Source of the DNA: a virus
Taxonomy: Duplodnaviria; Heunggongvirae; Uroviricota; Caudoviricetes
DNA: 64,000 nucleotides
Virus record (IMG/VR): IMGVR_UViG_3300010357_001332
Reading direction: 5' to 3' (one strand)
Shown here: positions 3,507-61,173 of the stretch, one piece after another
How the letters are laid out: each line of letters starts with the position of its first letter
How positions within the stretch are numbered: the first letter of the stretch is position 1
The notes under the pieces: model-generated
Seen by the model: only the letters and a program-made list of their open reading frames with translations
What the model was told of the DNA's origin: nothing
The model's database searches: none
Position numbers and translations under genes: made by a program

Positions 3507-6500
3507 TTAATCTCCTAATCTATCGAATGATTCTTGAAGTTCTTTATCTAAAAGATGTGGGTAATCTATCCACTTGGTAAAATTTTCTCTAAATCTTTGT
3601 AATTGATCAGATCCTTCTTTATTTAAACATTTACCTTGATTATCCCAAACTTTCCCTTTAATAAGTTTGTCGTCTATACTTCCTTGTTTAATTCTTTGTT
3701 CATTTAATTCATATCCTACTATCTCTTGATTTGAATAAATAGGATATAATATTTGGTATAATTTATATGTATCTAATTCTTCAGAAGAAAGATTATAATC
3801 AGGTTCTTTAAAAGCTTTTCTGATCTTCTTCTCCAGATCTTCGTTTATAAACTCAAAATTCCTTAAAAAGATATTACTTATAGAATCGTTTTCTTGCGCA
3901 ATCCATTTAGATGCATATAATATATTATTATGTAAAAAGAAAGGAACATATCCTCTATATTTTATTTTTTCTTGCTGCATTCTAGCAGTTATTAGCATTT
4001 CTTGCAATTGAGCAGATTTAGATTCTTTGTCTTCTTCAGTAGAAGAAAACTGCTTTGCAAGTTTTTCTCTTTCTATTTTTTCCCATTCAGGAATATCAAT
4101 AATATCTGCAACAAATTCTACTTTATCAAATCTAGCTTTTTTATGTAACTTGGATATTTTAGATATTAATCGTCTAGTAGGATCTATTAAATCTACTGGA
4201 CAAGAACCAACTCTAATATCTCCAACATAAAAATCTTTATAACGTCTTATTTGAGAATCTAATTTATTGCCGAATTCTTCATCACATCCTTCAGTAGCTG
4301 GTGATAATAAACATACTTCTAAAGTAGGTGATAATAAAAATGCAAGATTTCTTCCTTTGCTTAATAATTCATCAGTTGGAAAGATTTGTCCTTCTTTTGT
4401 TAATATATTTTCTACTTTTACATTATAAATACCTTGTTCATTAAATCCTTTTAATTGCCCAAAACAAAAAGCAGTTACACCTAATCCTTTTATCTTAGAA
4501 CAAAAATTAGATTGTTTAATATCAGCTTGTTTACTAAAAAAGAATTCTTTTGCCCAACCTTCTAGTTCATTAGAGATTAATAAATCTGTAAATCCTTGAT
4601 ATTCTTTATTTTGTGTATACGGAACAAAACCTGTTTTTCCATATGCAAATAGTTTTCCTTGTATATATAGCTTTTTAAAATTATCAATAAGATCTTCAAC
4701 AGGTTTATTTTTAGATAGATTTTCTCCTATCTTATAAAAAAGTAAGGAAACAGGACCAGGAATTTCTTGTGCTTTTAAATTTTTATTCCAAGTTTCTTCT
4801 TCTACTGCATCCATATACTTAGAAGTAGATAACTCTATATTTGCTTCTTTCTGTCTAACTTGATCTGGATGTAATAATACTTCTTCTTGTATTACTTCTG
4901 CAGTTTTAGATTCGCTTATAAATTCATTATCTTGTGCAATATGCTCGATATCTAAATTAACTTGTTCTCTAGGTTTAGAGAGACCAAATTTATTTCTTAA
5001 TCCTTTAAAAGCTGAACCTAATGCTGACATCGGAGCACTTATACTACCAGCTGCAGGAGGTTGTGCATATATACCAATTCTTTCTTCTAATTCTTTTTGT
5101 TGTTTCTTCTTAATTAATTCTTCTTCTAGATCGAAACCCATTGATTGTAGTAGTGTTAATGCAGAAAGAGGACCTTTACCCTGTGCATAAACATTATTCA
5201 TAAAAGTTAAAAATGCTTGATCATCTCTAAGCATTAGTTTTTTATGCCAAGCTAATTTTGGTATAATTAAGCGCTCTTCTAATTCTTTTCCTTTTCTAGC
5301 TATTCTATATTGTCCGACAATTTCTCTTTTATCTCTTCTATACCAACCATTTCTTTTTGCCATTCCGCGTAGAAACTTATTCTGAATCCAACGAACTTCA
5401 AATAAATCTCTTTTAGCTTTATATCTAGCTAATTGTGTTTGTAATCCAACATTGGCAGAAGCATATGTAGCTTCTCCTGTCATAAATTGTTGACTTACAC
5501 CTAATGCTATCATTTTCTTTTTAGCAATTTCATCCCACTCTCTGTCTAATTTCATTACTTTATCTGCTACTGTAAGAAATTCTACATTTAGGGCATAATG
5601 ATAGATTAGAGCAAAGTTAGGATCAAAGGTAGCTTGTTGTAACATTTGAGCTAATGCCATCTGATGATCTGCACTTGGTATCCAACCTTTTTGTGGATCT
5701 CCTAATTTAAATAGCTTTAAAGGATAAATAAAATTATCAGCAATAGTAATCTGAGATTCTCGTAACTTATCCTCATACATGAGAAGCCTGAAAATGCGAT
5801 CTAAGATTGAAGTTCCACGTAAATCATACGGATTACTTCTTCTTGCTATATGCGTTATTTCGTCTGGATCTAATATTAAATTTTTACCAGATAATACTCG
5901 TTTAATGATTTCATGAGGTAATCTTTTCTTGAGTTCTTGGTCTTGGGGTTTAGTAGAATTTACTAGATGTTTTAATTCATCGTCAGGGATTAATTCTACT
6001 GAATATTCTTGATCTGCGAATGGGCTAGCAGATAATTCAACGAAATCAGGATTATGAATAATGATGTGTTTCCACATTCCTTTTTCATCATCCCAAGGTG
6101 TGTTAATAAATACTTCGCCTATCTTGAGATATTCAAGATCAATAGCAGGAAGCATAGAAAAGAATTGTGTTTGATCGAAGCAATCTTGTACATGTTGCTT
6201 AATAATTTTATCATCACAAACTACTTCTGCTTTAGAATACGGAAGCTCTGCATGCATGTCGAGAACAGCACCAACAACCTCATCATGATCATAAAACCAT
6301 CTACGCCATCTATTTTTTTGTTTAATAGATCTAGGTAGATAAATAGCAGTAGTAGTAATTTCTGGATCATAGAAACGTCTTGAGGAGTTTCTAAGAATAT
6401 TTAATCCGCCATTTGCTAATCCAGAGGATAGGCCTAATGTTGCTAAACTACCAAAATTAGTAGAATTATACGTAGCGGCAGTTTTCTCTCTAGCACCGGA

Positions 6501-6584
6501 TTCAGAAGAATCGCCTAACCAAGCTCTAGAGTTAATAGAGCTAGGATACATGCTTTCAAAATTCTTTTCGTAAGTTGAACTCAT
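3507..6584 (-). CDS. Portal protein with ~490 aa C-terminal extension
   Basis: N-terminal RRWFYDHDEVVGAVLDMHAELP, GTSILDRIFRLLMYEDKLRESQ, YPLKLFKLGD, GEATYASANV motifs of large-phage portals. Confidence 0.75.
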   Translation of the reverse strand: MSSTYEKNFESMYPSSINSRAWLGDSSESGAREKTAATYNSTNFGSLATLGLSSGLANGGLNILRNSSRRFYDPEITTTAIYLPRSIKQKNRWRRWFYDHDEVVGAVLDMHAELPYSKAEVVCDDKIIKQHVQDCFDQTQFFSMLPAIDLEYLKIGEVFINTPWDDEKGMWKHIIIHNPDFVELSASPFADQEYSVELIPDDELKHLVNSTKPQDQELKKRLPHEIIKRVLSGKNLILDPDEITHIARRSNPYDLRGTSILDRIFRLLMYEDKLRESQITIADNFIYPLKLFKLGDPQKGWIPSADHQMALAQMLQQATFDPNFALIYHYALNVEFLTVADKVMKLDREWDEIAKKKMIALGVSQQFMTGEATYASANVGLQTQLARYKAKRDLFEVRWIQNKFLRGMAKRNGWYRRDKREIVGQYRIARKGKELEERLIIPKLAWHKKLMLRDDQAFLTFMNNVYAQGKGPLSALTLLQSMGFDLEEELIKKKQQKELEERIGIYAQPPAAGSISAPMSALGSAFKGLRNKFGLSKPREQVNLDIEHIAQDNEFISESKTAEVIQEEVLLHPDQVRQKEANIELSTSKYMDAVEEETWNKNLKAQEIPGPVSLLFYKIGENLSKNKPVEDLIDNFKKLYIQGKLFAYGKTGFVPYTQNKEYQGFTDLLISNELEGWAKEFFFSKQADIKQSNFCSKIKGLGVTAFCFGQLKGFNEQGIYNVKVENILTKEGQIFPTDELLSKGRNLAFLLSPTLEVCLLSPATEGCDEEFGNKLDSQIRRYKDFYVGDIRVGSCPVDLIDPTRRLISKISKLHKKARFDKVEFVADIIDIPEWEKIEREKLAKQFSSTEEDKESKSAQLQEMLITARMQQEKIKYRGYVPFFLHNNILYASKWIAQENDSISNIFLRNFEFINEDLEKKIRKAFKEPDYNLSSEELDTYKLYQILYPIYSNQEIVGYELNEQRIKQGSIDDKLIKGKVWDNQGKCLNKEGSDQLQRFRENFTKWIDYPHLLDKELQESFDRLGD

Positions 6585-6638
6585 TATTTACCTTCAAAAA
6601 ATATTCATTTCATTTAATTAAAACAATAATTAGATAAC

Positions 6639-7346
6639 TTAGATAGTAGTACCATGTAGATTTATAATATCTTTTCCTTTTTCTACTATCTGACGTACTA
6701 ATTCTAGTTCGTCACCTTCGGTATAATCCATTGAATCATGCATATCTATTAAAGTTTTTGCATCATTATAAATAGCTTGTAGTTTACTAATTTCTTCTTC
6801 TTCGCTATATCCTTCTTCTTCTAATTCTTCATACATTTCTGCTACTTTTTTAAGACCTTCTTTAACAGAACTCATTTTTCCAGAAGCAATTTGTTCAGGA
6901 GTTAAATTACCATAAGGATTTGTAGCTTTAGTTTCACCAGTATAAGGATCTACATAAGTTCCTTCTTGTGCTTGAAATTCACCGGCTTGAAAAGGTGTTC
7001 CTGTTACCAAAGTCTCTTCTCCTTCTAATTGACTTTTAGCAGAAGAAAGTTCATTTTCTAGCATGGTTTTATAATCACCAGTTGTTCCTGGAATAGCTTC
7101 TTCTAGTTCTTGAATTCTAGCTTTTAATTGACCAGTTGGAAGACTACCTGTATCAATACCTTCAGAAGTTCCAATTCCTTCTGCTACTTTAAAAGATATA
7201 AATCCATTATCTTTTGTAACAGCTAATGAAGCTTGTTTAATATTACTAATATTATTTTCTTCAGCAATTTTAGTTATTACATTTTCTAGTTCTTTATAAA
7301 GATCTGATTCTTTTGCAAGAACTATTGTGTTTGAATTGATTTTCAT
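6639..7346 (-). CDS. Hypothetical acidic protein, probable internal head protein
   Basis: 235 aa, AAGGAG RBS, K-x-A motifs (FKVAE, KKVAE). Confidence 0.6.
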   Translation of the reverse strand: MKINSNTIVLAKESDLYKELENVITKIAEENNISNIKQASLAVTKDNGFISFKVAEGIGTSEGIDTGSLPTGQLKARIQELEEAIPGTTGDYKTMLENELSSAKSQLEGEETLVTGTPFQAGEFQAQEGTYVDPYTGETKATNPYGNLTPEQIASGKMSSVKEGLKKVAEMYEELEEEGYSEEEEISKLQAIYNDAKTLIDMHDSMDYTEGDELELVRQIVEKGKDIINLHGTTI

Positions 7347-13959: not shown

Positions 13960-14047
13960 AACCAAGGCGTTTGCCTTGTTTAACCAAGGCGGGCACGCTG
14001 TTTAACCAAGGCGTTTGCCTTGTTTAACCAAGGCGTTTGCCTTGTTT
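13960..14047. repeat. Four tandem 22-bp dyad-symmetric repeats (candidate replication-origin iterons)
   Basis: AACCAAGGCGTTTGCCTTGTTT x3 plus variant AACCAAGGCGGGCACGCTGTTT (unit 2); no spacers; GC-rich island next to an AT-rich tract. Confidence 0.8.
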
Positions 14048-14702
14048 ACATTGATTGTTCTTTATGATAAATAGATATAAGTTTATCATTCTTTTTTCTT
14101 TTTAATGTTAATTCTAAAGATTTTTTACGATCTTCTTCTATATCCTTTTCTTTCTGTAATTCTTGTAATTTTTTAGCTACTACTTCCTCTTTAATACATC
14201 TTTCTTTATCTAAACTCGATATGTATTCATCTTTAAATAACGATGGAAATAAATCTATATATACTTCTTCTAAAGGAAAATTAATAGTTAATAAACTTCC
14301 TATAATTCTTTTAATATTTACTCTATATTCATAAGTATTTTTACTTTGTGCAGAATACTGTTTAGATTTTCTTCTTTTAATATATCCTAAATAAGTTAGT
14401 TCTGTTAATTCTTTACGTATTGTTGCTTCATCAGACTTTAGCATAGTTTCTTGTTTAAATATATTACCTGATTTATGTATCCAGCAACATTCTTTGATTT
14501 CTTTATCAGTAAATTCCTCTTCAAGATATTCTTGTATTTCTTTTTCTTTAAATCCTCTATCTGTCCAATATAATAAATGATTTAACAAAATTGCTTTATT
14601 ATTAGACCCACTAATATCTATTAACTCTTTTCGTATAACGGTTACTGGCCATTTTTTAAAATGATTTTGTTGTAATTTTTTTGTTTTTTTCTTATCCTGC
14701 AT
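14046..14702 (-). CDS. Winged-helix protein resembling the N-terminal domain of phage replication initiators
   Basis: KAILLNHLLYW...WIHKS...TIRKELTELTYLGYIKRRK...YEYRVN pattern; stop codon overlaps the repeats. Confidence 0.55.
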   Translation of the reverse strand: MQDKKKTKKLQQNHFKKWPVTVIRKELIDISGSNNKAILLNHLLYWTDRGFKEKEIQEYLEEEFTDKEIKECCWIHKSGNIFKQETMLKSDEATIRKELTELTYLGYIKRRKSKQYSAQSKNTYEYRVNIKRIIGSLLTINFPLEEVYIDLFPSLFKDEYISSLDKERCIKEEVVAKKLQELQKEKDIEEDRKKSLELTLKRKKNDKLISIYHKEQSM

Positions 14703-54956: not shown

Positions 54957-56945
54957 ATGTCAGATTTATTAACTAGCAGATTATTAGATCCCTCGTATTC
55001 TCCTTCAACTACTACTCTACCCACGTTTTTAACTCCTAGTAAAAAAGAATGCCCAGTACGTTTTACTACAGATATTGTCGAATTCTGTGAGCACGAAGAA
55101 TTTTTGGGTACTAAGCTAAGACCACTACAAAAAAACTTTCTTGTCGATTTATATTCATTAGACGATTCCGGATATCCAAAATACGATACAGGTGTTTTTA
55201 TAGCAGGTATGCGTGGTGGTAAATCTGCTTTAGCAGCATTTATAGCTGCATTTCAAGTGCACAGATTACTATCTATGAAGGAACCAGCATTAGAGCTGCA
55301 TCAGATTAAAGGGCAACGTCTTACTATACAATTTATTGCTAACTCCGAAGCACAAGCGAAAGAAACGGCGTATGCTACCTTTGAAACACTTATTACAGAT
55401 TCATTTTGGTATCAAAAGTATATAGGATGGTTAAAAGAGAGAGAAAGAGAAGAACATCTTCCTGTAAATTCATTATTTGAACATAAAGCACAAAGTATAG
55501 AATTTTATGAAAAGAATGTTGCTATTTTATCGCTAAATTCTAACTCCGCAACTGCAGTAGGTAAAACTTCAGCATGCTGTATATTTGATGAGCTTTCTCG
55601 TTTTGATGTAGCGGAGAATGATATACAAGCTAAATCACAAAAGCGTGTTGCACAAGCTATTTATGACGGTGTAGCTAAAGCAGCAACATCTCTAATGCCT
55701 TTTTCTAAGGTTGTTACTATTACATCTCCTATGTATGAAGATGATTATGGCATGAGATTATTATATCAATCTGGTACATTTAAAGGCGGAGAACAAAGTG
55801 GTATTATTCATACTCTAAGAAGGCAATACCCTGATAAAGCAGAAAGAATGCTAGGATATCATTATACTACTTTTGAAATGAATCCTCTAAAGGATGCAAA
55901 TGGCAATATTATACCAGGTGGATTTAGCCCAGAACAAAGCTTTTTCAAGAGTAAAAGAAATGAGAGTCCAGAAGGTTTTAGAAGAGACTTTCTTGCTATA
56001 CCACCCTCAGCAGTAAGTCCTTTCTTTGAATATCCTGAAAGAATAGAATCCTGTATTGTCAAGAATTCACAAGCAGTAATTTTCTTTGATAGGGAATTTC
56101 AAGAATCTGTAGACAGAGATGGATTACCACTAAGTGTTAGACATTATATAGGTAAATCTTTGGAAATAGTTAAGCCCAATAAAATGAAAGATTACTATAT
56201 ATCATGTGACCAGGGTGAAAAGAAAGATGCGTTTGTTGTAGCAATGGCACACGGAGAAACTATAGCTTATAGAACAGTAAATACAGAAGGAAAAGAAATA
56301 GAATATACTAGATATAAAGTTATAATAGATTTTATTGAATGTTGGGTTCCAGATCGAGAAAAACGTGTAACAGTATACTTTCCTAATGTAGAAGAAATCA
56401 TATTTAAACTCCACCAAAATTTTAATATTAAGAAAGTAGTATTTGACCAGTGGAATAGTACAGAATCTATTCAAAGATTATTTAGTAAAGGAATAATGAC
56501 AGAAAAAACTAATCCTTCTGAAAATCTAAAGAAATATGAGATTCTTAAGACATTATTTTATAATGGTCTTATAGAAATGCCTCAAAACGATAGGCTACTT
56601 AAAGAATTACGACAACTTAATTTGATACGTGGTCAGAAAGTTGATCACAGTTCTTCGGGAAGTTCGGATGCCTCCGATGCTCTAGCTAGAGTCGTATTCG
56701 AAGTATATATAAATGTATTGCAACAAGCGGTGCAAGGTAATGTTATTACTAATCCTATGCAGGTAGGCTTGCCCACATTAAGGGGCATTGCAGGGATGCA
56801 AGAATATATGAAGTCTCCTATGATAGCACCTACTGCTGGTTTACCTATTAATAGAACGCCAGGTAGTATAGGAGTAAGCAGTGTTTTTAGTAAAGGAACT
56901 AAAGCCCCAGAACAAAATGTCTTCCCAAATTTTCTACTTAAATAA
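54957..56945 (+). CDS. terL: Terminase large subunit
   Basis: Walker A AGMRGGKS, CIFDE, coupling ITSP, nuclease SCDQG..DAF, FDQWNS, SDASDA. Confidence 0.9.
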   Translation: MSDLLTSRLLDPSYSPSTTTLPTFLTPSKKECPVRFTTDIVEFCEHEEFLGTKLRPLQKNFLVDLYSLDDSGYPKYDTGVFIAGMRGGKSALAAFIAAFQVHRLLSMKEPALELHQIKGQRLTIQFIANSEAQAKETAYATFETLITDSFWYQKYIGWLKEREREEHLPVNSLFEHKAQSIEFYEKNVAILSLNSNSATAVGKTSACCIFDELSRFDVAENDIQAKSQKRVAQAIYDGVAKAATSLMPFSKVVTITSPMYEDDYGMRLLYQSGTFKGGEQSGIIHTLRRQYPDKAERMLGYHYTTFEMNPLKDANGNIIPGGFSPEQSFFKSKRNESPEGFRRDFLAIPPSAVSPFFEYPERIESCIVKNSQAVIFFDREFQESVDRDGLPLSVRHYIGKSLEIVKPNKMKDYYISCDQGEKKDAFVVAMAHGETIAYRTVNTEGKEIEYTRYKVIIDFIECWVPDREKRVTVYFPNVEEIIFKLHQNFNIKKVVFDQWNSTESIQRLFSKGIMTEKTNPSENLKKYEILKTLFYNGLIEMPQNDRLLKELRQLNLIRGQKVDHSSSGSSDASDALARVVFEVYINVLQQAVQGNVITNPMQVGLPTLRGIAGMQEYMKSPMIAPTAGLPINRTPGSIGVSSVFSKGTKAPEQNVFPNFLLK

Positions 56946-56959
56946 AGGAGATTAAGAAA

Positions 56960-57931
56960 ATGAGCGTTTCCAAACAACGATTACAGGAAATAATGGAATT
57001 TTGCTTAGAACAAGGAGAAGAAAAAACTAGAGAATCTTTTAATATTACAGTATCTACATTGGAAAAGTATAAAAGATTATATAAAGAACAGGTAAGTGAT
57101 GATATAAATAAAAAGATTTATCTTGGACAGATTTTTGAAAGATTTAGCGAAGCAGAACTTAAATCTATAGCAGAAGGATCAAGGATTATACCAGGTGAAC
57201 ATTCATCTCCAAAATTAAATTTTGATGGTGAGAAAGTAACATTTGGTGCGATGGGTGATACACATATTGGAAGTGTCTATTTCAAAGAAGAATTACTAGA
57301 ACAAGCAATAGAGGAATGTGATAAGCAAAATTGTCAGTTTATTTGTCATACAGGCGATCTAACAGACGGAATGTCTAGAAGACCAGGTCATGTATACGAA
57401 CTCAAGGATATAGGATATCAAAGGCAGAAAGAAAGAGCTGTACGATGCTTTTCACAATGGAGAAAACACTGGTACTTCATAGATGGCAATCATGACCGTT
57501 GGTATGTCGAAAATAATAATTCTGGTGCAATTATAGCAAAAGATATTTGTAATGAATTAAATCACTTTGAACAAGGAGCCACTTTTCTAGGGCATGATGA
57601 AGGAATTATTACACTAGGTGATATTAAGATTATGTTATGGCATGGAATAGATTCTTCTAGCTATGCTACTTCTTATCGACTGCAAAAACTAGTTGAAGCT
57701 TTTTCTGGCGGTGAGAAACCTAATGTTTTATTGGCAGGGCATGTACATAAACAAGGATACTTTTTTGAAAGAAATATTCATTGTATTAGTACTGGAGCAA
57801 TATGTTTACAAAGCAGATGGATGCGAGGAAAGAGGCTGGCAAATCACAGCGGATTTTGGATCATTACGATGTGGATGAATGAAAAAGGAGTAAGTAAATT
57901 TCAACCAACTTGGTATCCATTTTACATGTAA
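56960..57931 (+). CDS. Calcineurin-like metallophosphoesterase with N-terminal HTH-like segment
   Basis: GDTHIG, GDLTDG, GNHD, WHG, GHVH. Confidence 0.85.
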   Translation: MSVSKQRLQEIMEFCLEQGEEKTRESFNITVSTLEKYKRLYKEQVSDDINKKIYLGQIFERFSEAELKSIAEGSRIIPGEHSSPKLNFDGEKVTFGAMGDTHIGSVYFKEELLEQAIEECDKQNCQFICHTGDLTDGMSRRPGHVYELKDIGYQRQKERAVRCFSQWRKHWYFIDGNHDRWYVENNNSGAIIAKDICNELNHFEQGATFLGHDEGIITLGDIKIMLWHGIDSSSYATSYRLQKLVEAFSGGEKPNVLLAGHVHKQGYFFERNIHCISTGAICLQSRWMRGKRLANHSGFWIITMWMNEKGVSKFQPTWYPFYM

Positions 57932-57941
57932 GTAATCTATA

Positions 57942-57977
57942 AAACAAAATGCAGTAGTTAACTACTGCATTTTGTTT
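57942..57977. terminator. Perfect 36-bp palindrome; likely bidirectional terminator at the convergent junction
   Basis: AAACAAAATGCAGTAGTTAACTACTGCATTTTGTTT; T-runs on both strands. Confidence 0.8.
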
Positions 57978-57981
57978 GTTT

Positions 57982-58066
57982 AGCATATCTTATCACAACT
58001 TGACGGATCTTATCTCAACCCAACCCAACGTAATAAATTGAAACTCATTATACTATACCTTATCTG
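57982..58066 (-). repeat. Pentamer array A (17 units; NN + degenerate GTT/GAT triplet)
   Basis: Minus strand: caGAT aaGGT atAGT atAAT gaGTT tcAAT ttATT acGTT ggGTT ggGTT gaGAT aaGAT ccGTC aaGTT gtGAT aaGAT atGCT. Confidence 0.65.
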
Positions 58067-58361
58067 ATATACAATTTTTTTCTAATAGAAAACTATTCTC
58101 GTTTATTTCTGACTCTTCTTGAAAAACAGGAATAGTAATAATCTTTTTCTTTCTTAAAGAAAGAAGATCCGAATCACTAATTTCAATAGTTTTAGAAACT
58201 ATTTTTGTAGAAAAGAAAAATCCTGGATATTTCATTCCATTTTCTGTTTCAAATACTTGAAGATAAACATTATCGTGATCTCTCCAGTAATATTCATCTT
58301 TATTGAGATTTAAATCTTTATAATCTTTTTTAACACTAAAACTAGCAGGAACTTTTTTCAT
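58053..58361 (-). CDS. Hypothetical protein between arrays A and B
   Basis: 102 aa, AAGGAG RBS at end of array B. Confidence 0.7.
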   Translation of the reverse strand: MKKVPASFSVKKDYKDLNLNKDEYYWRDHDNVYLQVFETENGMKYPGFFFSTKIVSKTIEISDSDLLSLRKKKIITIPVFQEESEINENSFLLEKNCISDKV

Positions 58362-58379
58362 TATTTTAACAATCTCCTT

Positions 58380-58499
58380 AACTTAATATAACTTAATATA
58401 ACTGAACGTAACCCAACGTAACTCAACTCAACTGAATTAAACATAACCTAACTCAACGTAACTCAACTGAATTAAACTGAATTAAACATAACCTAACTT
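58380..58499 (-). repeat. Pentamer array B (24 units; NN + GTT x19 / ATT x5)
   Basis: Plus strand AAY-NN x24 uninterrupted; begins in the stop codon of the RAMP gene. Confidence 0.95.
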
Positions 58500-59073
58500 A
58501 CTCTTCTATATACTCAATAGATTTAACATTAAATCTACCGTAGTATCCATTTTGACTTGGTCTGAATCTTAATAATCCTATAAATTTACCTGCTACATCT
58601 AAATGCCTTTCAAATACCTTTCCACCTTGGGTGGTAGCAATAGATTCATCAATTATAAAAAACTTTGCTTTTCCAGACCAAGATTCTATCTTTGGAAAAA
58701 TTCTAGGTACACGTGTTGTACCACCTCTTGTTCCATCTGCAGGAACAAGCAATCTTTCACCTTGAACATCCTCTTTCTTAATAGAAAGAACAATGGGATC
58801 TACCACCATAAGACCTGCTTCAAATTTCTTGGTCCAAGTCTTCTTACCTTCGCCTTCAATTCTTTCAGACAAATACTTTGCTGCATTTGTCAGACAGTTT
58901 TTTAGAGCCATTGGAGGAATAATTACATAACCTTCTTCATTGTAATGCATTCTTTCCTTCCAAGTTCTCTCTTCATAATCTGCATTCTTCTCTCCTTCTT
59001 TCTTTGGAACTTCATAATACTTTGAAAAACTTAAAGGACTTGCTCCTTCAATTTCAACTATTGCTGCTTTCAT
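58498..59073 (-). CDS. Stand-alone Cas7/RAMP-fold protein (Vipr-like candidate)
   Basis: N-terminal IVEIEGASPL strand, IIPPMALKNCLTNAA (cf. IPGSSLKG), C-terminal G-loop GKFIGLLRFRPSQNGYYGRFNV; flanked by arrays B and C. Confidence 0.75.
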   Translation of the reverse strand: MKAAIVEIEGASPLSFSKYYEVPKKEGEKNADYEERTWKERMHYNEEGYVIIPPMALKNCLTNAAKYLSERIEGEGKKTWTKKFEAGLMVVDPIVLSIKKEDVQGERLLVPADGTRGGTTRVPRIFPKIESWSGKAKFFIIDESIATTQGGKVFERHLDVAGKFIGLLRFRPSQNGYYGRFNVKSIEYIEE

Positions 59074-59105
59074 TTACTTTTACCTCATTTATTTTAAAAT
59101 ATTTT

Positions 59106-59190
59106 ACCTTACTATACCGAAATCCAACTCAACGTAACACAACCCAACACAACTTAACTCAACGAAACGCAACGCAACCAAACTTAATTA
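59106..59190 (-). repeat. Pentamer array C (17 units)
   Basis: Minus: taATT aaGTT tgGTT gcGTT gcGTT tcGTT gaGTT aaGTT gtGTT ggGTT gtGTT acGTT gaGTT ggATT tcGGT atAGT aaGGT. Confidence 0.92.
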
Positions 59191-59201
59191 GTTTATAAGT
59201 T

Positions 59202-59402
59202 CTAGTGCAAATACTTTACAGATTCTTTTTCTATTTTTGCTCTAACAATTTGACATTCTTCTATTTCTAAAGAATAATCATATTTAGAAAATAGAGAAGT
59301 AACATTAACATATATCCACCAAAAGAAATTTTGTATTCTTGTAGGATAGTATCCTTTATCTAACATATCTTTATAATATTGTAGTTTCTTTTTTATATTC
59401 AT
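59202..59402 (-). CDS. Small hypothetical protein between arrays C and D
   Basis: 66 aa. Confidence 0.6.
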   Translation of the reverse strand: MNIKKKLQYYKDMLDKGYYPTRIQNFFWWIYVNVTSLFSKYDYSLEIEECQIVRAKIEKESVKYLH

Positions 59403-59411
59403 ATAATTCTT

Positions 59412-59486
59412 ACCTTAACTGAACTCAACTCAACAAAACTCAACCAAACTCAACTCAACTAAACAGAACCGACTGCAACATATCAC
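59412..59486 (-). repeat. Pentamer array D (15 units)
   Basis: Minus: gtGAT atGTT gcAGT cgGTT ctGTT taGTT gaGTT gaGTT tgGTT gaGTT ttGTT gaGTT gaGTT caGTT aaGGT. Confidence 0.92.
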
Positions 59487-59487
59487 T

Positions 59488-60507
59488 TTATTTCTTTCTA
59501 GATAAAGAACTAGAAGAAATTTCTGGAAATTTAATCTCTTTCTTCTTTTCTTCTTTTCGTTTTTCTACTGCAATCGAAGGAAGAGAAAGATTTTGAATAC
59601 TATCTTCTTTTTTAATTTCTTGTCTAATTTTTTCTATTGTAACTTTTGGTATCTCCTTAAATTTTTTGGATAACTTTTCTACTTCTTTTTTATTTTGTTC
59701 CACTTCTATTTTTCTTAATTCAGTTTCTCTTTCTAAAGAAATATCTTCCCAATGTTGCATATCTTCAAATAATTCTTGGGGACGAATATATTCTATAAAT
59801 TCGTGTTTAATAGTTTTTTGATCGATATCTACTTGAATTAATGTAGCACCAATATCCACAGGGTTATCAGATCCCATAAATGCTGTTTCCCACTGCCAAC
59901 AGGGTGTATGAATAATTTTCACTCCATCATGCGCCTCATATATTCTATGAAGATGAGAAGCAACAATCATTCCTATTTTTGCAGTGTTAGTTTTATAATA
60001 TCTTTTAAAAGCAGCAGTAATTTCAGAAGATGGTGTTTTCCCTTGATGTCTGAAGTTAATACTTGGCATATTATATTTACTTAAGGATAAATTAAATTCC
60101 TTTTTATAATGATTTCCTTTTACATTATGTAATGTAATTAAATTTTGTGTAATTTGTCTATCTGCATCGAACCCCGTTCCTTTACCTGTATGATATCCTG
60201 AACCGCTGCATCCATAGATTATAGTATTTTTACCTACTAAAGGAGATAATAATTCTACAGCAGAGTTTACTTGATCCTCCATATCAGGAATACAGAGTGT
60301 AGTAGCATCTTTTCCACCAGGACCATCCACTATATCACCATTAAGAATTAGATAATCAGGATATTTATATTTTTGAATAAATTCTTCCCATTTGTTTATT
60401 GCCCATAATTGATAAGAATTTGTATGTTCATTAAAATACTTTCTAGGCGTTAGACCATAAATAGAACCCACATGAACATCTGCTAAAACTAGTAATTTAA
60501 TAATCAT
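59488..60507 (-). CDS. Calcineurin-like metallophosphoesterase with charged C-terminal tail
   Basis: ADVHVGS, NGDIVDG, GSGYH, RHQG, SHLH. Confidence 0.8.
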   Translation of the reverse strand: MIIKLLVLADVHVGSIYGLTPRKYFNEHTNSYQLWAINKWEEFIQKYKYPDYLILNGDIVDGPGGKDATTLCIPDMEDQVNSAVELLSPLVGKNTIIYGCSGSGYHTGKGTGFDADRQITQNLITLHNVKGNHYKKEFNLSLSKYNMPSINFRHQGKTPSSEITAAFKRYYKTNTAKIGMIVASHLHRIYEAHDGVKIIHTPCWQWETAFMGSDNPVDIGATLIQVDIDQKTIKHEFIEYIRPQELFEDMQHWEDISLERETELRKIEVEQNKKEVEKLSKKFKEIPKVTIEKIRQEIKKEDSIQNLSLPSIAVEKRKEEKKKEIKFPEISSSSLSRKK

Positions 60508-60537
60508 ATATACTTAAACCTCTTTTTAATATAATTT

Positions 60538-60622
60538 ACCTTAACATAATAAAACGCAGTATAACCCAACAAAACTCAACAAATCTGAACGTAACCCAAC
60601 GAAACGAAATATACCTTAATAA
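60538..60622 (-). repeat. Pentamer array E (17 units)
   Basis: Minus: ttATT aaGGT atATT tcGTT tcGTT ggGTT acGTT caGAT ttGTT gaGTT ttGTT ggGTT atACT gcGTT ttATT atGTT aaGGT. Confidence 0.9.
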
Positions 60623-60631
60623 ATATTCTTT

Positions 60632-60850
60632 TCATAATAATCTTCTCCTACATCTATTTAAAACTTTTATAATATTTTGTAAAGATAATTGTTTTAATAA
60701 TTGATATAAAGCTTTAGATACATAAATTCTATTTTTATAATACAAACCGTCTATATTTATAGCATATTCTATATTGTTAAAAGAAGAATTTATTAATATA
60801 AAAGTGTTTTCTTTATCTAGATGCATTATTTTATCATGTATTATAATCAC
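60632..60850 (-). CDS. Hypothetical protein, paralog family member 1
   Basis: YVSKALYQLLKQLSLQNIIKVLNRC. Confidence 0.6.
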   Translation of the reverse strand: MIIIHDKIMHLDKENTFILINSSFNNIEYAINIDGLYYKNRIYVSKALYQLLKQLSLQNIIKVLNRCRRRLL

Positions 60851-61173
60851 ATATTGCCTCTTTTCTTCATCAGTTTTGAAGCTTCGTCTTTCATATGTTC
60901 TAATATCATTTTAATTATAGAATCACATTGTGATTGTTTGACTCTATGAATACAAATAGAAGTATCAAAAGATTTTAATCTTCTTTGTTCAAATTCAAAT
61001 CCAGATATTTCTTTACATCTTTTTAGAACCTTTAAAATACTTTCGTTTGATAAATTATTACAGATATCATATAGTTCAACGGAAAGATATACACAAGGAT
61101 ATATACTACTCTGATTTTCATAGTATTCAGAATGTTGTAATAGTAGGCTACTAGTAATACTAAAAGGTTTCAT
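60847..61173 (-). CDS. Hypothetical protein, paralog family member 2
   Basis: YLSVELYDICNNLSNESILKVLKRC. Confidence 0.65.
   Translation of the reverse strand: MKPFSITSSLLLQHSEYYENQSSIYPCVYLSVELYDICNNLSNESILKVLKRCKEISGFEFEQRRLKSFDTSICIHRVKQSQCDSIIKMILEHMKDEASKLMKKRGNM

What the first reader, a model, noticed from the sequence alone, without database searches (positions are those of the whole stretch)
57982..60622. Candidate RNA-guided system: stand-alone Cas7/RAMP protein with five GTT-NN pentamer arrays (VIPR-like)
Seen: five arrays (17, 24, 17, 15 and 17 units) with strict 5-nt period, a near-constant triplet (mostly GTT) and a variable dinucleotide. All are on the transcribed strand, each starting at or near a stop codon; B-E end just upstream of the next start codon. 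Arrays B and C flank a 191-aa gene with RAMP hallmarks. No cas1/2/3/6 or repeat-spacer CRISPR is in the window. NN positions are GC-richer than the genome (16 of 34 in array C), which fits information content better than slippage. From memory, unverified: VIPR systems pair a RAMP protein with GGY/NN RNAs whose NN bases read a gapped DNA target. The GTT triplet and five dispersed arrays would be a distinct variant. Inference: a programmable anti-competitor or gene-silencing RNP.
Basis: partly seen in the sequence, partly recalled or inferred. Interest (0 to 1): 0.95.

Follow-up and report, generated by a model that had tools for sequence, protein, structure and literature searches.

The report
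Phage VIPR system with GTT-NN guides
A large AT-rich phage carries a VIPR system (a recently described CRISPR-like RNA-guided gene silencer) whose guide arrays use G-T-T instead of the published G-G-pyrimidine, and two of its five guides spell conserved motifs of genes carried by rival sibling phages.

Summary
The 191-aa ORF (58498-59073, minus) folds with high confidence as a RAMP. Its five best-scoring named AlphaFold DB matches are the five seed Vipr proteins of the VIPR discovery preprint.

Five period-5 arrays (RTT.NN on the minus, sense strand) fill the gaps between genes. They are the only such arrays in the 64 kb. Relatives carry GGC, GAC, CGC or GTT arrays on the vipr sense strand, which fixes the RNA strand.

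A strain with near-identical genes (339-aa protein 99.7%, Vipr 95%) keeps GTT and the array ends, but its NN series are entirely different.

Read by the published NNx rule, array A spells IESFTGGEKPNV. This matches 24/24 bases in four phage contigs, in orthologues of the phage's own neighbouring phosphoesterase gene. The phage's own copy differs at three NN bases.

Array E best matches (21/24) a nucleoside deoxyribosyltransferase gene. A sibling phage (terminase 98% identical) carries that gene where this phage has its VIPR cassette.

No targets were found for arrays B, C and D. Transcription and binding are not shown.

VIPR is in print (2026 preprints), and this scan has noted it on more than 100 other genomes. 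I class this as a new variant of a known kind.

The parts
58498..59073 (-). vipr: 191-aa RAMP (Cas7-like) protein, the presumed RNA-binding filament subunit
   Evidence: The AF2 model has pLDDT 93.5. The AFDB top hit is X1U2U4, and all five VIPR seed proteins are in the top six. Z is 12.2 to Csm3 6ifl_F. tblastn to the LESphi2 Vipr gives E 2e-6, and that protein is 37.6% identical to the SUSP1 Vipr. The family has 231 or more members.
57980..58054 (-). Array A: 12 guide units plus 3 trailing units, the last element before the terminator. Its NN series reads IESFTGGEKPNV by the NNx rule.
   Evidence: Units are listed. A 9-NN seed gave 15 viral-contig hits, 14 of them in frame in phosphoesterase orthologues. 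Four contigs match 24/24. The sibling phage L135 matches 22/24 and the phage's own gene 21/24.
58378..58497 (-). Array B: 24 RTT.NN units directly after the vipr stop codon, with an internal duplication (possibly two guides). It ends in GTT.aa GGA.ga, which doubles as the ribosome-binding site of the 102-aa gene.
   Evidence: No target was found.
59104..59188 (-). Array C: 14 RTT.NN units plus the end units GGT.at AGT.aa GGT.aa, upstream of vipr.
   Evidence: No target was found.
59410..59484 (-). Array D: 11 GTT.NN units plus edge units. It ends in GTT.aa GGT.aa, 9 nt before the start of the 66-aa gene.
   Evidence: Seeds gave 0 and 2 hits, which is chance level.
60536..60620 (-). Array E: about 15 units. 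Its 12 core NN read SSGT(H/Q)(F/L)(D/E)(F/L)G(I/M)A(F/L).
   Evidence: Units are listed. The best hit in sibling phages is the PF05014 gene motif STGTHFDMGVAF at 21/24, against a shuffled maximum of 18. The series is compatible with all 9 invariant residues of 99 homologues.
59488..60507 (-). 339-aa calcineurin-like phosphoesterase (N-terminus like the PolD DP1 / Mre11 nuclease core): candidate accessory (vap-like) gene.
   Evidence: Pfam Metallophos E 8.5e-4 for this protein, and 4 of 5 family members match (best 2.4e-6). PDB DP1 E 9e-6. The residues D10, H12, D58, D61, H106, H185 and H187 are invariant. Homologues lie beside vipr in L099, L094/95, L086, L096, L048 and L138.
59202..59402 (-). 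66-aa ORF between arrays D and C; no known family.
   Evidence: It is conserved at 95% in strain L138.
58053..58361 (-). 102-aa ORF between arrays B and A; no known family. It is unrelated to the roughly 170-aa downstream gene that is usual in this Vipr family.
   Evidence: A 189-nt contig of a metatranscriptome run lies inside it.
57941..57978 (.). Bidirectional terminator hairpin (16-bp stem) closing the minus-strand unit after array A and the convergent + strand gene.
   Evidence: Fold (z -3.95).
57692..57727 (+). Near-target of array A inside the phage's own 323-aa phosphoesterase gene (VEAFSGGEKPNV), with three mismatches at NN positions.
   Evidence: The allele is unique among 114 homologues.

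Best explanation
This is a VIPR locus of a large AT-rich phage from digester and wastewater habitats. The minus-strand unit runs: array E, 339-aa phosphoesterase, array D, 66-aa ORF, array C, vipr, array B, 102-aa ORF, array A, terminator.

Inferred by homology to the SUSP1 system: Vipr protomers bind one per 5-nt unit, hold the fixed RTT triplet and expose the NN pair. The coated stretches survive as guide RNAs. The complex reads double-stranded DNA as NNx NNx, skipping every third base, so that a guide tracks codon positions 1-2 of a gene and ignores the wobble base. Binding blocks transcription. The linked DP1/Mre11-like phosphoesterase may add cleavage, but that is speculative.

Shown here:
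- The protein's fold and family.
- The arrays, their strand (by homology to relatives) and their complete turnover between strains.
- Guide A spells the consensus motif IESFTGGEKPNV of a phage phosphoesterase. It matches four phage contigs perfectly, while the phage's own allele differs at three NN bases.
- Guide E best matches the deoxyribosyltransferase gene that sibling phages carry at the VIPR cassette's position.

The most likely role is silencing of genes of co-infecting sibling and other phages.
For: Protein:
- AF2 model pLDDT 93.5.
- AFDB ranks 1, 2, 3, 4 and 6 are the five seed Viprs named in the discovery paper.
- Z 12.2 to Csm3.
- Sequence link to the LESphi2 Vipr, whose locus has canonical GGY.NN vrRNAs, and from there to the SUSP1 Vipr.

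Arrays:
- They are the only RTT.NN arrays in 64 kb, and all are on the gene strand.
- Among the 83 relatives tabulated, 50 have GGC as the dominant array on the vipr sense strand; others have GAC, CGC or GTT.
- The closest relative, L099, has about five tandem GTT.NN vrRNAs, four of them followed by a conserved tail and hairpin.
- The 3' end motif xxx.aa GGT is shared across the family.

Hypervariability:
- Strain L138 has the 339-aa protein 338/339 identical and Vipr 182/191 identical, yet every NN series differs while GTT and the array ends are kept. Read laying showed the same independently.

Code and targets:
- The NN series resemble codon positions 1-2 in the sense direction: +19 bits, against -1 for antisense.
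- The guide A seed gave 15 hits against 0-3 for five other seeds. Fourteen are in frame in one gene family, and four match 24/24.
- The guide A peptide equals the family consensus at all 12 positions, and the own allele is unique among 114 homologues.
- Guide E matches the NDT gene of L135, L136 and L138 at 21/24.
- Sibling L135 (terminase 98% identical) lacks the cassette and any RTT arrays.
- No self-target of 80% or more was found for B to E.
Against: - No RNA evidence. The one true metatranscriptome run holds only a 189-nt contig inside the 102-aa gene, which could be DNA carry-over.
- The fixed triplet is not GGY. In SUSP1, GGY substitutions abolish silencing, so recognition of GTT by this Vipr is inferred only.
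- There is no long conserved 3' tail or hairpin after the window's arrays, unlike SUSP1 and L099.
- Guides B, C and D have no target in anything I could search.
- Guide E has no perfect target. Its 21/24 match is of unknown functional value.
- Guide A matches the phage's own gene at 21/24 (87.5%). By the papers' 80% cut-off that would count as a self-target.
- The mismatch tolerance of VIPR is not given in the texts I read.
Confidence: 0.85

Rival explanations
1. The arrays act in cis or on the phage itself. Vipr coats the gaps between genes of its own mRNA to control processing or translation of the genes downstream. This would resemble TRAP, which binds triplets spaced 5 nt apart. Alternatively, guide A silences the phage's own adjacent phosphoesterase gene at a set time in infection.
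For: Arrays B and D end in AAGGAG / AAGGT, which serve as the ribosome-binding sites of the next genes. Guide A matches the own gene at 21/24 and lies about 50 nt from that gene's end (array 57980-58054; gene end 57931).
Against: The NN series change completely between strains whose genes are 95-99.7% identical. That is not expected of a cis-regulatory site. Guide A matches foreign alleles perfectly and the own allele imperfectly. The AAGGT end motif is also present where a hairpin tail follows instead of a gene.
Confidence: 0.08
2. The functional RNA comes from the + strand and reads AAY.NN, a purine-purine-pyrimidine unit like GGY. It would be antisense to the operon.
For: AAY has the same purine/pyrimidine pattern and the same degenerate third position as GGY.
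Against: Relatives have canonical GGC.NN on the vipr sense strand, as do LESphi2 and SUSP1. No + strand genes lie in the region. Array A lies after the terminator when read on the + strand. The promoter scan was uninformative. The target search cannot separate the strands, because NNx patterns are symmetric.
Confidence: 0.04
3. The arrays are DNA-level elements with no guide function: microsatellite slippage products, iterons or bent DNA.
For: The strict short period in an AT-rich genome.
Against: The 73 NN pairs tabulated use all 16 dinucleotides and are richer in G+C than the genome. Slippage would give identical units. The arrays sit beside a RAMP gene in about 70 of the 83 relatives tabulated. 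Two NN series match coding motifs at 21-24 of 24 bases.
Confidence: 0.02

Closest known systems
VIPR systems (Vipr + vrRNA + vap); type II exemplars are Escherichia phage SUSP1 and the Pseudomonas prophage clade (bioRxiv 10.64898/2026.04.26.720920, .720927, 10.64898/2026.10.15.759431)
   Same: A lone RAMP protein in a phage. 5-nt units of a fixed triplet plus a variable NN, on the vipr strand, with 11-24 units per array. Guides match coding DNA with every third base skipped, at the wobble position. Predicted targets are genes of rival phages. No self-target of 80% or more for four of the five arrays.
   Different: The fixed triplet is RTT, so G2 is replaced by T. The published variants keep G2 (NNNGG, YNNNG, NNNNG). 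There is no long structured 3' tail, only a short aa-GGT end. The arrays are spread through the gaps of a five-gene unit instead of forming a tandem block. The usual accessory gene is absent, and a DP1/Mre11-like phosphoesterase is linked instead. The G-loop reads GRFRP where SUSP1 has GDWRP.
Non-canonical VIPR arrays reported from a genomic language model survey (bioRxiv 10.64898/2026.10.21.760802): GAC/NN, CAC/NN, WGT/NN, TGH/NN
   Same: 5-nt period, an altered fixed triplet and a Vipr-like fold next to the array. The same reference protein, X1U2U4, is the best structural match.
   Different: GTT or RTT is not named in that paper's text. Its figure S10 could not be read, so priority is uncertain. 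That paper gives no targets.
Cas7 backbone subunits of class 1 CRISPR effectors (Csm3, type VII Cas7)
   Same: RRM core, thumb hairpin and glycine-rich loop. Z 11-12 over the whole protein.
   Different: About 10-19% identity. No CRISPR repeat-spacer array was found. No Cas family was detected among the eight ORFs of 54957-61173 scanned with Pfam and PHROGs; no dedicated scan for cas1, cas2, Cas5, Cas10 or a large subunit was run. The RNA period is 5 nt rather than 6.

Membership tests
VIPR system | Vipr protein: minimal RAMP with RRM core, thumb and G-loop, structurally closest to the seed Viprs | tested here: met
   pLDDT 93.5. X1U2U4 has TM 0.79/0.84 and E 3e-14. All five seeds are in the top six hits. 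Z is 12.2 to Csm3, where the discovery pipeline asked for Z of 6 or more. The beta-hairpin 104-129 and the loop GLLRFRPSQNGYYGRF hold the family's invariant residues.
VIPR system | Sequence homology to a Vipr of a characterised clade | tested here: met
   tblastn to the LESphi2 ORF gives E 2e-6 at 27.5% over 85% of the query. That locus has GGY.NN arrays, and its protein is 37.6% identical to the SUSP1 Vipr.
VIPR system | Tandem 5-nt units with a fixed triplet and a hypervariable NN, about 9-16 units, on the vipr strand | tested here: met
   The NN are completely different in strain L138, whose genes are 95-99.7% identical.
VIPR system | The fixed triplet is GGY or a published relaxed form that keeps G2 | tested here: not met
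   The triplet is GTT or ATT. This is the basis for calling it a variant. Other non-GGY triplets are in print.
VIPR system | Invariant, structured 3' tail after the repeats | tested here: inconclusive
   Only a short shared end (GTT.aa GGT.aa / GGA.ga) follows arrays B to E, then a ribosome-binding site and the next gene. The closest relative, L099, has a tail plus hairpin.
VIPR system | Guides match natural DNA targets by the 1-nt skip rule, with the skipped base at the wobble position | tested here: met
   Guide A matches 24/24 in L108, L110, L114 and L120, in frame. Guide E matches an NDT gene at 21/24. Guides B, C and D gave nothing.
VIPR system | vrRNAs are expressed and co-purify with Vipr; the complex silences targets | not testable with these tools
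   Only contigs of public runs were available. One 189-nt RNA-library contig lies inside the 102-aa gene.
VIPR system | Accessory vap gene next to vipr | tested here: inconclusive
   The family's common downstream gene of about 170 aa (43 of 81 loci) is absent here. A 339-aa phosphoesterase is linked to vipr in seven related loci, but no role is shown and its model was poor (pLDDT 52.8).
Class 1 CRISPR-Cas effector (type III / VII) | CRISPR repeat-spacer array plus Cas5, a large subunit or Cas10, and adaptation genes | tested here: inconclusive
   No repeat-spacer array in the window. No Cas family was detected among the eight ORFs of 54957-61173 that were scanned. No dedicated scan for Cas5, Cas10 or adaptation genes was run over the whole window.
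TRAP-type RNA-binding attenuation protein | Ring of small beta-sandwich subunits binding (G/U)AG triplets spaced by 2-3 nt | tested here: not met
   The protein is a RAMP, not a TRAP fold. The resemblance is limited to the 5-nt spacing.

The most novel reading that the evidence does not exclude
The cassette may serve rivalry between sibling phages at a single hypervariable locus. Between a 98%-identical terminase gene and a 95%-identical DUF5662 gene, near-identical jumbo phages carry one of two arrangements. One has a deoxyribosyltransferase gene plus a consensus-type phosphoesterase allele. The other has a VIPR cassette whose guides E and A spell exactly those two genes, together with a phosphoesterase allele that has escaped guide A through three amino-acid changes. 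Guide E sits where the intermediate strain L138 has the target gene itself. On this reading the cassette silences the alternative alleles of its own locus in co-infecting siblings, and so favours its own inheritance.
Probability: 0.3. Interest if true: 0.8.

Novelty: new variant of a known kind. Interest (0 to 1): 0.6.

Why it matters
VIPR was described only in 2026, and the experimental work rests mainly on one clade that needs GGY. This locus adds four things.

- **A relaxed constant triplet.** The fixed part of the guide can be U-rich (GUU), with only its last base nearly constant. Guide A's units AGT, AAT and GAT still carry NN bases that match the target. This suggests the protein and the guide scaffold co-evolve freely. 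A small β1 motif tracks C versus T at triplet position 3: SPYSQS in C-users against SPLS(F/M/W)S in T-users.
- **A natural test of specificity.** There is a perfect foreign target, a sibling target at 22/24 and an own allele at 21/24, all of the same gene. One reporter experiment could therefore measure the mismatch tolerance that separates self from non-self.
- **Direct evidence of guide turnover.** Two natural strains with almost identical protein genes carry entirely different NN series.
- **A candidate nuclease partner** of the DP1/Mre11 type.

For applications, a Vipr that accepts a different scaffold could be used alongside the GGY-type systems without cross-talk.

Tried and rejected
- **Target seeds (9 NN, 18 fixed bases) in viral contigs.** C gave 0 and 0 hits. 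D gave 0 and 2 (20/26, chance level). B2 gave 0. E gave 3 hits, in a Rep gene, an unknown gene and one NDT-like gene, which is chance level by number.
- **E 10-NN seed in genome contigs.** Three hits: two in ComM of Omnitrophota MAGs and one in a Myxococcales MAG. All had flanks that do not match (22/32), so I rejected them.
- **Scan of all guides against local sequence.** I used the window, about 1.7 Mb of fetched loci and four whole target-phage contigs. Only A, and E in the sibling phages, rose above shuffled guides.
- **Guides of strain L138 and of L099, L024, L072 and L089.** None matched the window or the sibling contigs.
- **P0056.** This turned out to be a frameshifted copy of the same protein, not a variant.
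- **RNA evidence.** Runs X17 and X19 are probably DNA. X20 covers only 58117-58305. There is no cover over the arrays, so nothing can be said about transcription.
- **Promoter and terminator scan.** It did not rise above shuffles in this AT-rich DNA.
- **Model of the 339-aa protein.** pLDDT was 52.8, so I did not use it for fold search.
- **Family vap gene.** Profile comparison of the roughly 170-aa family gene with the 102-aa and 66-aa ORFs gave no relation.
- **Residues covarying with triplet position 2 (G, A or T).** None were found.
- **Whole genome.** It is not held, so the other roughly 174 kb of this phage could not be searched for targets or further arrays.
Full report
**What is in the sequence**

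The window has 29% G+C. It belongs to a large phage. A terminase large subunit gene lies at 54957-56945, and identical copies of the locus sit on contigs of up to 237,933 bases from digester, wastewater and biofilm samples.

From 58053 to the window's end, all plausible genes lie on the minus strand. Five gaps between or after these genes are filled by arrays with a strict 5-nt period. On the + strand they read AAY.NN. On the minus strand they read RTT.NN.

Uninterrupted RTT runs have 24 (B), 14 (C), 11 (D), 5+4 (E) and 4 (A) units. No other run of 5 or more units exists in the 64 kb on either strand, and shuffles never exceeded 5.

Each array begins at or inside the preceding stop codon. B to E end shortly before the next start codon. 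A ends at a 16-bp terminator hairpin shared with the convergent + strand gene. The 73 NN pairs tabulated use all 16 dinucleotides at 44% G+C, so they are not slippage products.

**The protein**

The 191-aa ORF between arrays C and B has no Pfam or NCBIfam match. It has 231 or more homologues of 185-200 aa, all unnamed. With a 47-sequence alignment, AlphaFold2 gave pLDDT 93.5.

Foldseek against AlphaFold DB clusters ranked X1U2U4 first (TM 0.79/0.84, E 3e-14). A0A661D0E2, A0A0F9A1L0, A0A2D6XG06 and A0A1F4YLN4 followed within the top six. These are exactly the five proteins that the VIPR discovery preprint names as its seeds.

Against solved structures, the best matches are Cas7 subunits of type VII and type III effectors. 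Z is 12.2 to Csm3 over the whole chain.

At the sequence level the protein finds one named phage, Pseudomonas phage LESphi2 (E 2e-6). That ORF sits behind three canonical GGY.NN arrays and is 37.6% identical to the SUSP1 Vipr. The published contact residues H17, E71, M72, R138, C173, D177, W178 and R179 are all present in the SUSP1 ORF. Membership in the Vipr protein family is therefore well supported.

**Which strand is the RNA**

The target search cannot tell, because an NNx pattern is its own reverse complement in form. Relatives decide the question. Of the 83 Vipr relatives tabulated (viral-contig loci plus others fetched earlier), most carry period-5 arrays directly before and after vipr and after the next gene. 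On the vipr sense strand, 50 have GGC as the dominant triplet, which is the canonical unit. Others read GAC, CGC, GGT or GTC. L024 and L072 read GTT.

The closest relative outside the phage's own population is L099 (65% identical, 31% G+C). It has about five tandem GTT.NN arrays downstream of vipr on the sense strand, four of them followed by a conserved tail (GATAAGGTAAGGATTT) and a hairpin.

The window's arrays end in the same short motif, GTT.aa GGT.aa or GGA.ga. G+C-rich relatives end in xxx.aa GGT. Array A also lies inside the minus-strand unit, but beyond the terminator when read on the + strand. I therefore read the RNAs as minus-strand RTT.NN.

**Guide-like turnover**

A DNA run from another digester holds a variant whose genes align at 92-98% while arrays B, C, D and E are replaced by other letters. 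I recovered that contig as L138.

In L138 the 339-aa protein is 338/339 identical, the 66-aa protein 63/66 and Vipr 182/191. At positions D, C and B the arrays keep GTT and the terminal motif, but the NN series are entirely different. This is the behaviour expected of exchangeable guides.

**What the guides read**

In the sense direction, the NN pairs look like codon positions 1-2 of this phage's genes: +19 bits over background, against -1 for antisense. I made 9-NN seeds following the published 1-nt skip rule.

- Seeds from C, D, B2 and E gave 0, 0, 0, 2, 0 and 3 hits in the viral collection.
- The seed from A gave 15 hits.
- Fourteen of the 15 lie in frame in orthologues (38-49% identity) of the phage's own 323-aa calcineurin-type phosphoesterase, encoded at 56960-57931 right beside the locus.
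- Over the 12 guide units, four contigs match 24/24 and most others match 23/24.

The guide spells IESFTGGEKPNV. In 114 homologues collected without regard to the motif, this peptide is the most common residue at every one of the 12 positions. The phage's own VEAFSGGEKPNV is unique. The own gene matches the guide at 21/24. Its three mismatches are all amino-acid-changing first bases of NN pairs.

**The sibling phage**

The homologue with the guide's exact peptide and 63% identity led to contigs L135 and L136 (114.5 and 71.5 kb, 29% G+C). Their terminase is 98% identical to the window's, DUF5662 95% and the neighbouring small genes 79-94%. The phosphoesterase is only 62.5% identical.

The whole VIPR cassette and all RTT arrays are absent from these contigs. 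In their place stand three small genes and a 120-aa nucleoside 2-deoxyribosyltransferase, PF05014.

An earlier first-reader note on this window (e1-5384698) proposed that array E decodes to such a motif. I tested this. The 12 core NN of E have their best match in L135, L136 and L138 inside that gene (STGTHFDMGVAF), in frame on the coding strand. The match is 21/24, against a shuffled maximum of 18.

The series is compatible with all nine invariant residues of 99 homologues. The window encodes no such motif. In strain L138 the deoxyribosyltransferase gene lies exactly where the window has array E, and L138 has no array there.

So two of the five guides point at genes of sibling phages in the same variable region. 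No perfect target of E is known. The functional meaning of 21-22/24 is also unknown, because the papers' texts give no mismatch tolerance. An earlier checked note of this scan (e1-5205340) warns that matches near 80% may be tolerated by their carriers.

**Accessory genes**

The roughly 170-aa gene that follows vipr in 43 of 81 relatives is absent here. It has a weak winged-helix hint.

A 339-aa protein is linked to vipr, upstream or downstream, in L099, L094/95, L086, L096, L048 and L138. It carries the phosphoesterase metal-binding motifs, and its N-terminus resembles the PolD small subunit, a nuclease of the Mre11 type. It is a candidate nuclease partner. Its model was too poor to use.

**Specificity for the triplet**

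SUSP1's G-loop GDWRP aligns with GRFRP in this family. Relatives that use strictly C at triplet position 3 have SPYSQS in strand β1, the strand that carries H17 in SUSP1. Relatives that accept or use T there (WIN, L024, L089, L086, L003, L021, L068) have SPLS(F/M/W)S. L072 is an exception. This is a correlation only.

**Verdict**

This is a genuine VIPR system. It is a new variant by four features: its GTT scaffold, its placement between genes without a structured tail, its linked phosphoesterase, and its inferred targets. VIPR and other non-GGY triplets are already in print. This scan has noted VIPR-like loci in more than 100 other genomes. I could not read the figures that would show whether a GTT clade is already typed.

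Noticed in passing
window 56960-57931 (+), compared with L135:10001-10963: The 323-aa phosphoesterase is only 62.5% identical between two phages whose adjacent terminase is 98% identical. It is a sharply diverged allele exactly at the gene that guide A reads.
   Followed up: partly
L099:1853-2497: The closest relative carries about five tandem GTT.NN vrRNAs, four of them followed by a conserved tail and hairpin. This is the classical array layout that the window lacks.
   Followed up: partly
L007, L014, L027, L028, L067 (GAC); L034, L055, L071 (CGC); L024, L072 (GTT); L003 (GGT): Within one Vipr family (48-56% identical proteins), the constant triplet of the arrays changes repeatedly. Arrays usually end with several xxx.aa units followed by GGT.
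   Followed up: partly
Vipr residues 14 and 16 (window 59026-59034, minus): The β1 motif SPYSQS goes with C at triplet position 3, and SPLS(F/M/W)S with T. L072 is an exception.
   Followed up: partly
L103 (Pseudomonas phage LESphi2, OQ594955, 4891-5475 and upstream): The unannotated 'hypothetical protein' P21_9 is a Vipr. Three canonical GGY.NN vrRNAs lie between it and the sigma factor / CI-Cro region.
   Followed up: partly
L135:2802-3893 and 4732-6993: The sibling phage encodes a tubulin-family protein and a helicase with an intein just upstream of the terminase, as expected of a jumbo phage.
   Followed up: no
window 13960-14048: Four tandem copies of a 22-nt unit (AACCAAGGCGTTTGCCTTGTTT), each with a small inverted repeat. 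Unexplained.
   Followed up: no
L100 and L101 (Omnitrophota MAGs, 31-33% G+C): The guide E seed matches the ComM/YifB motif KKEGTHFDLGIA (20 of 20 seed bases), but the flanks do not match. I judged this to be chance.
   Followed up: yes
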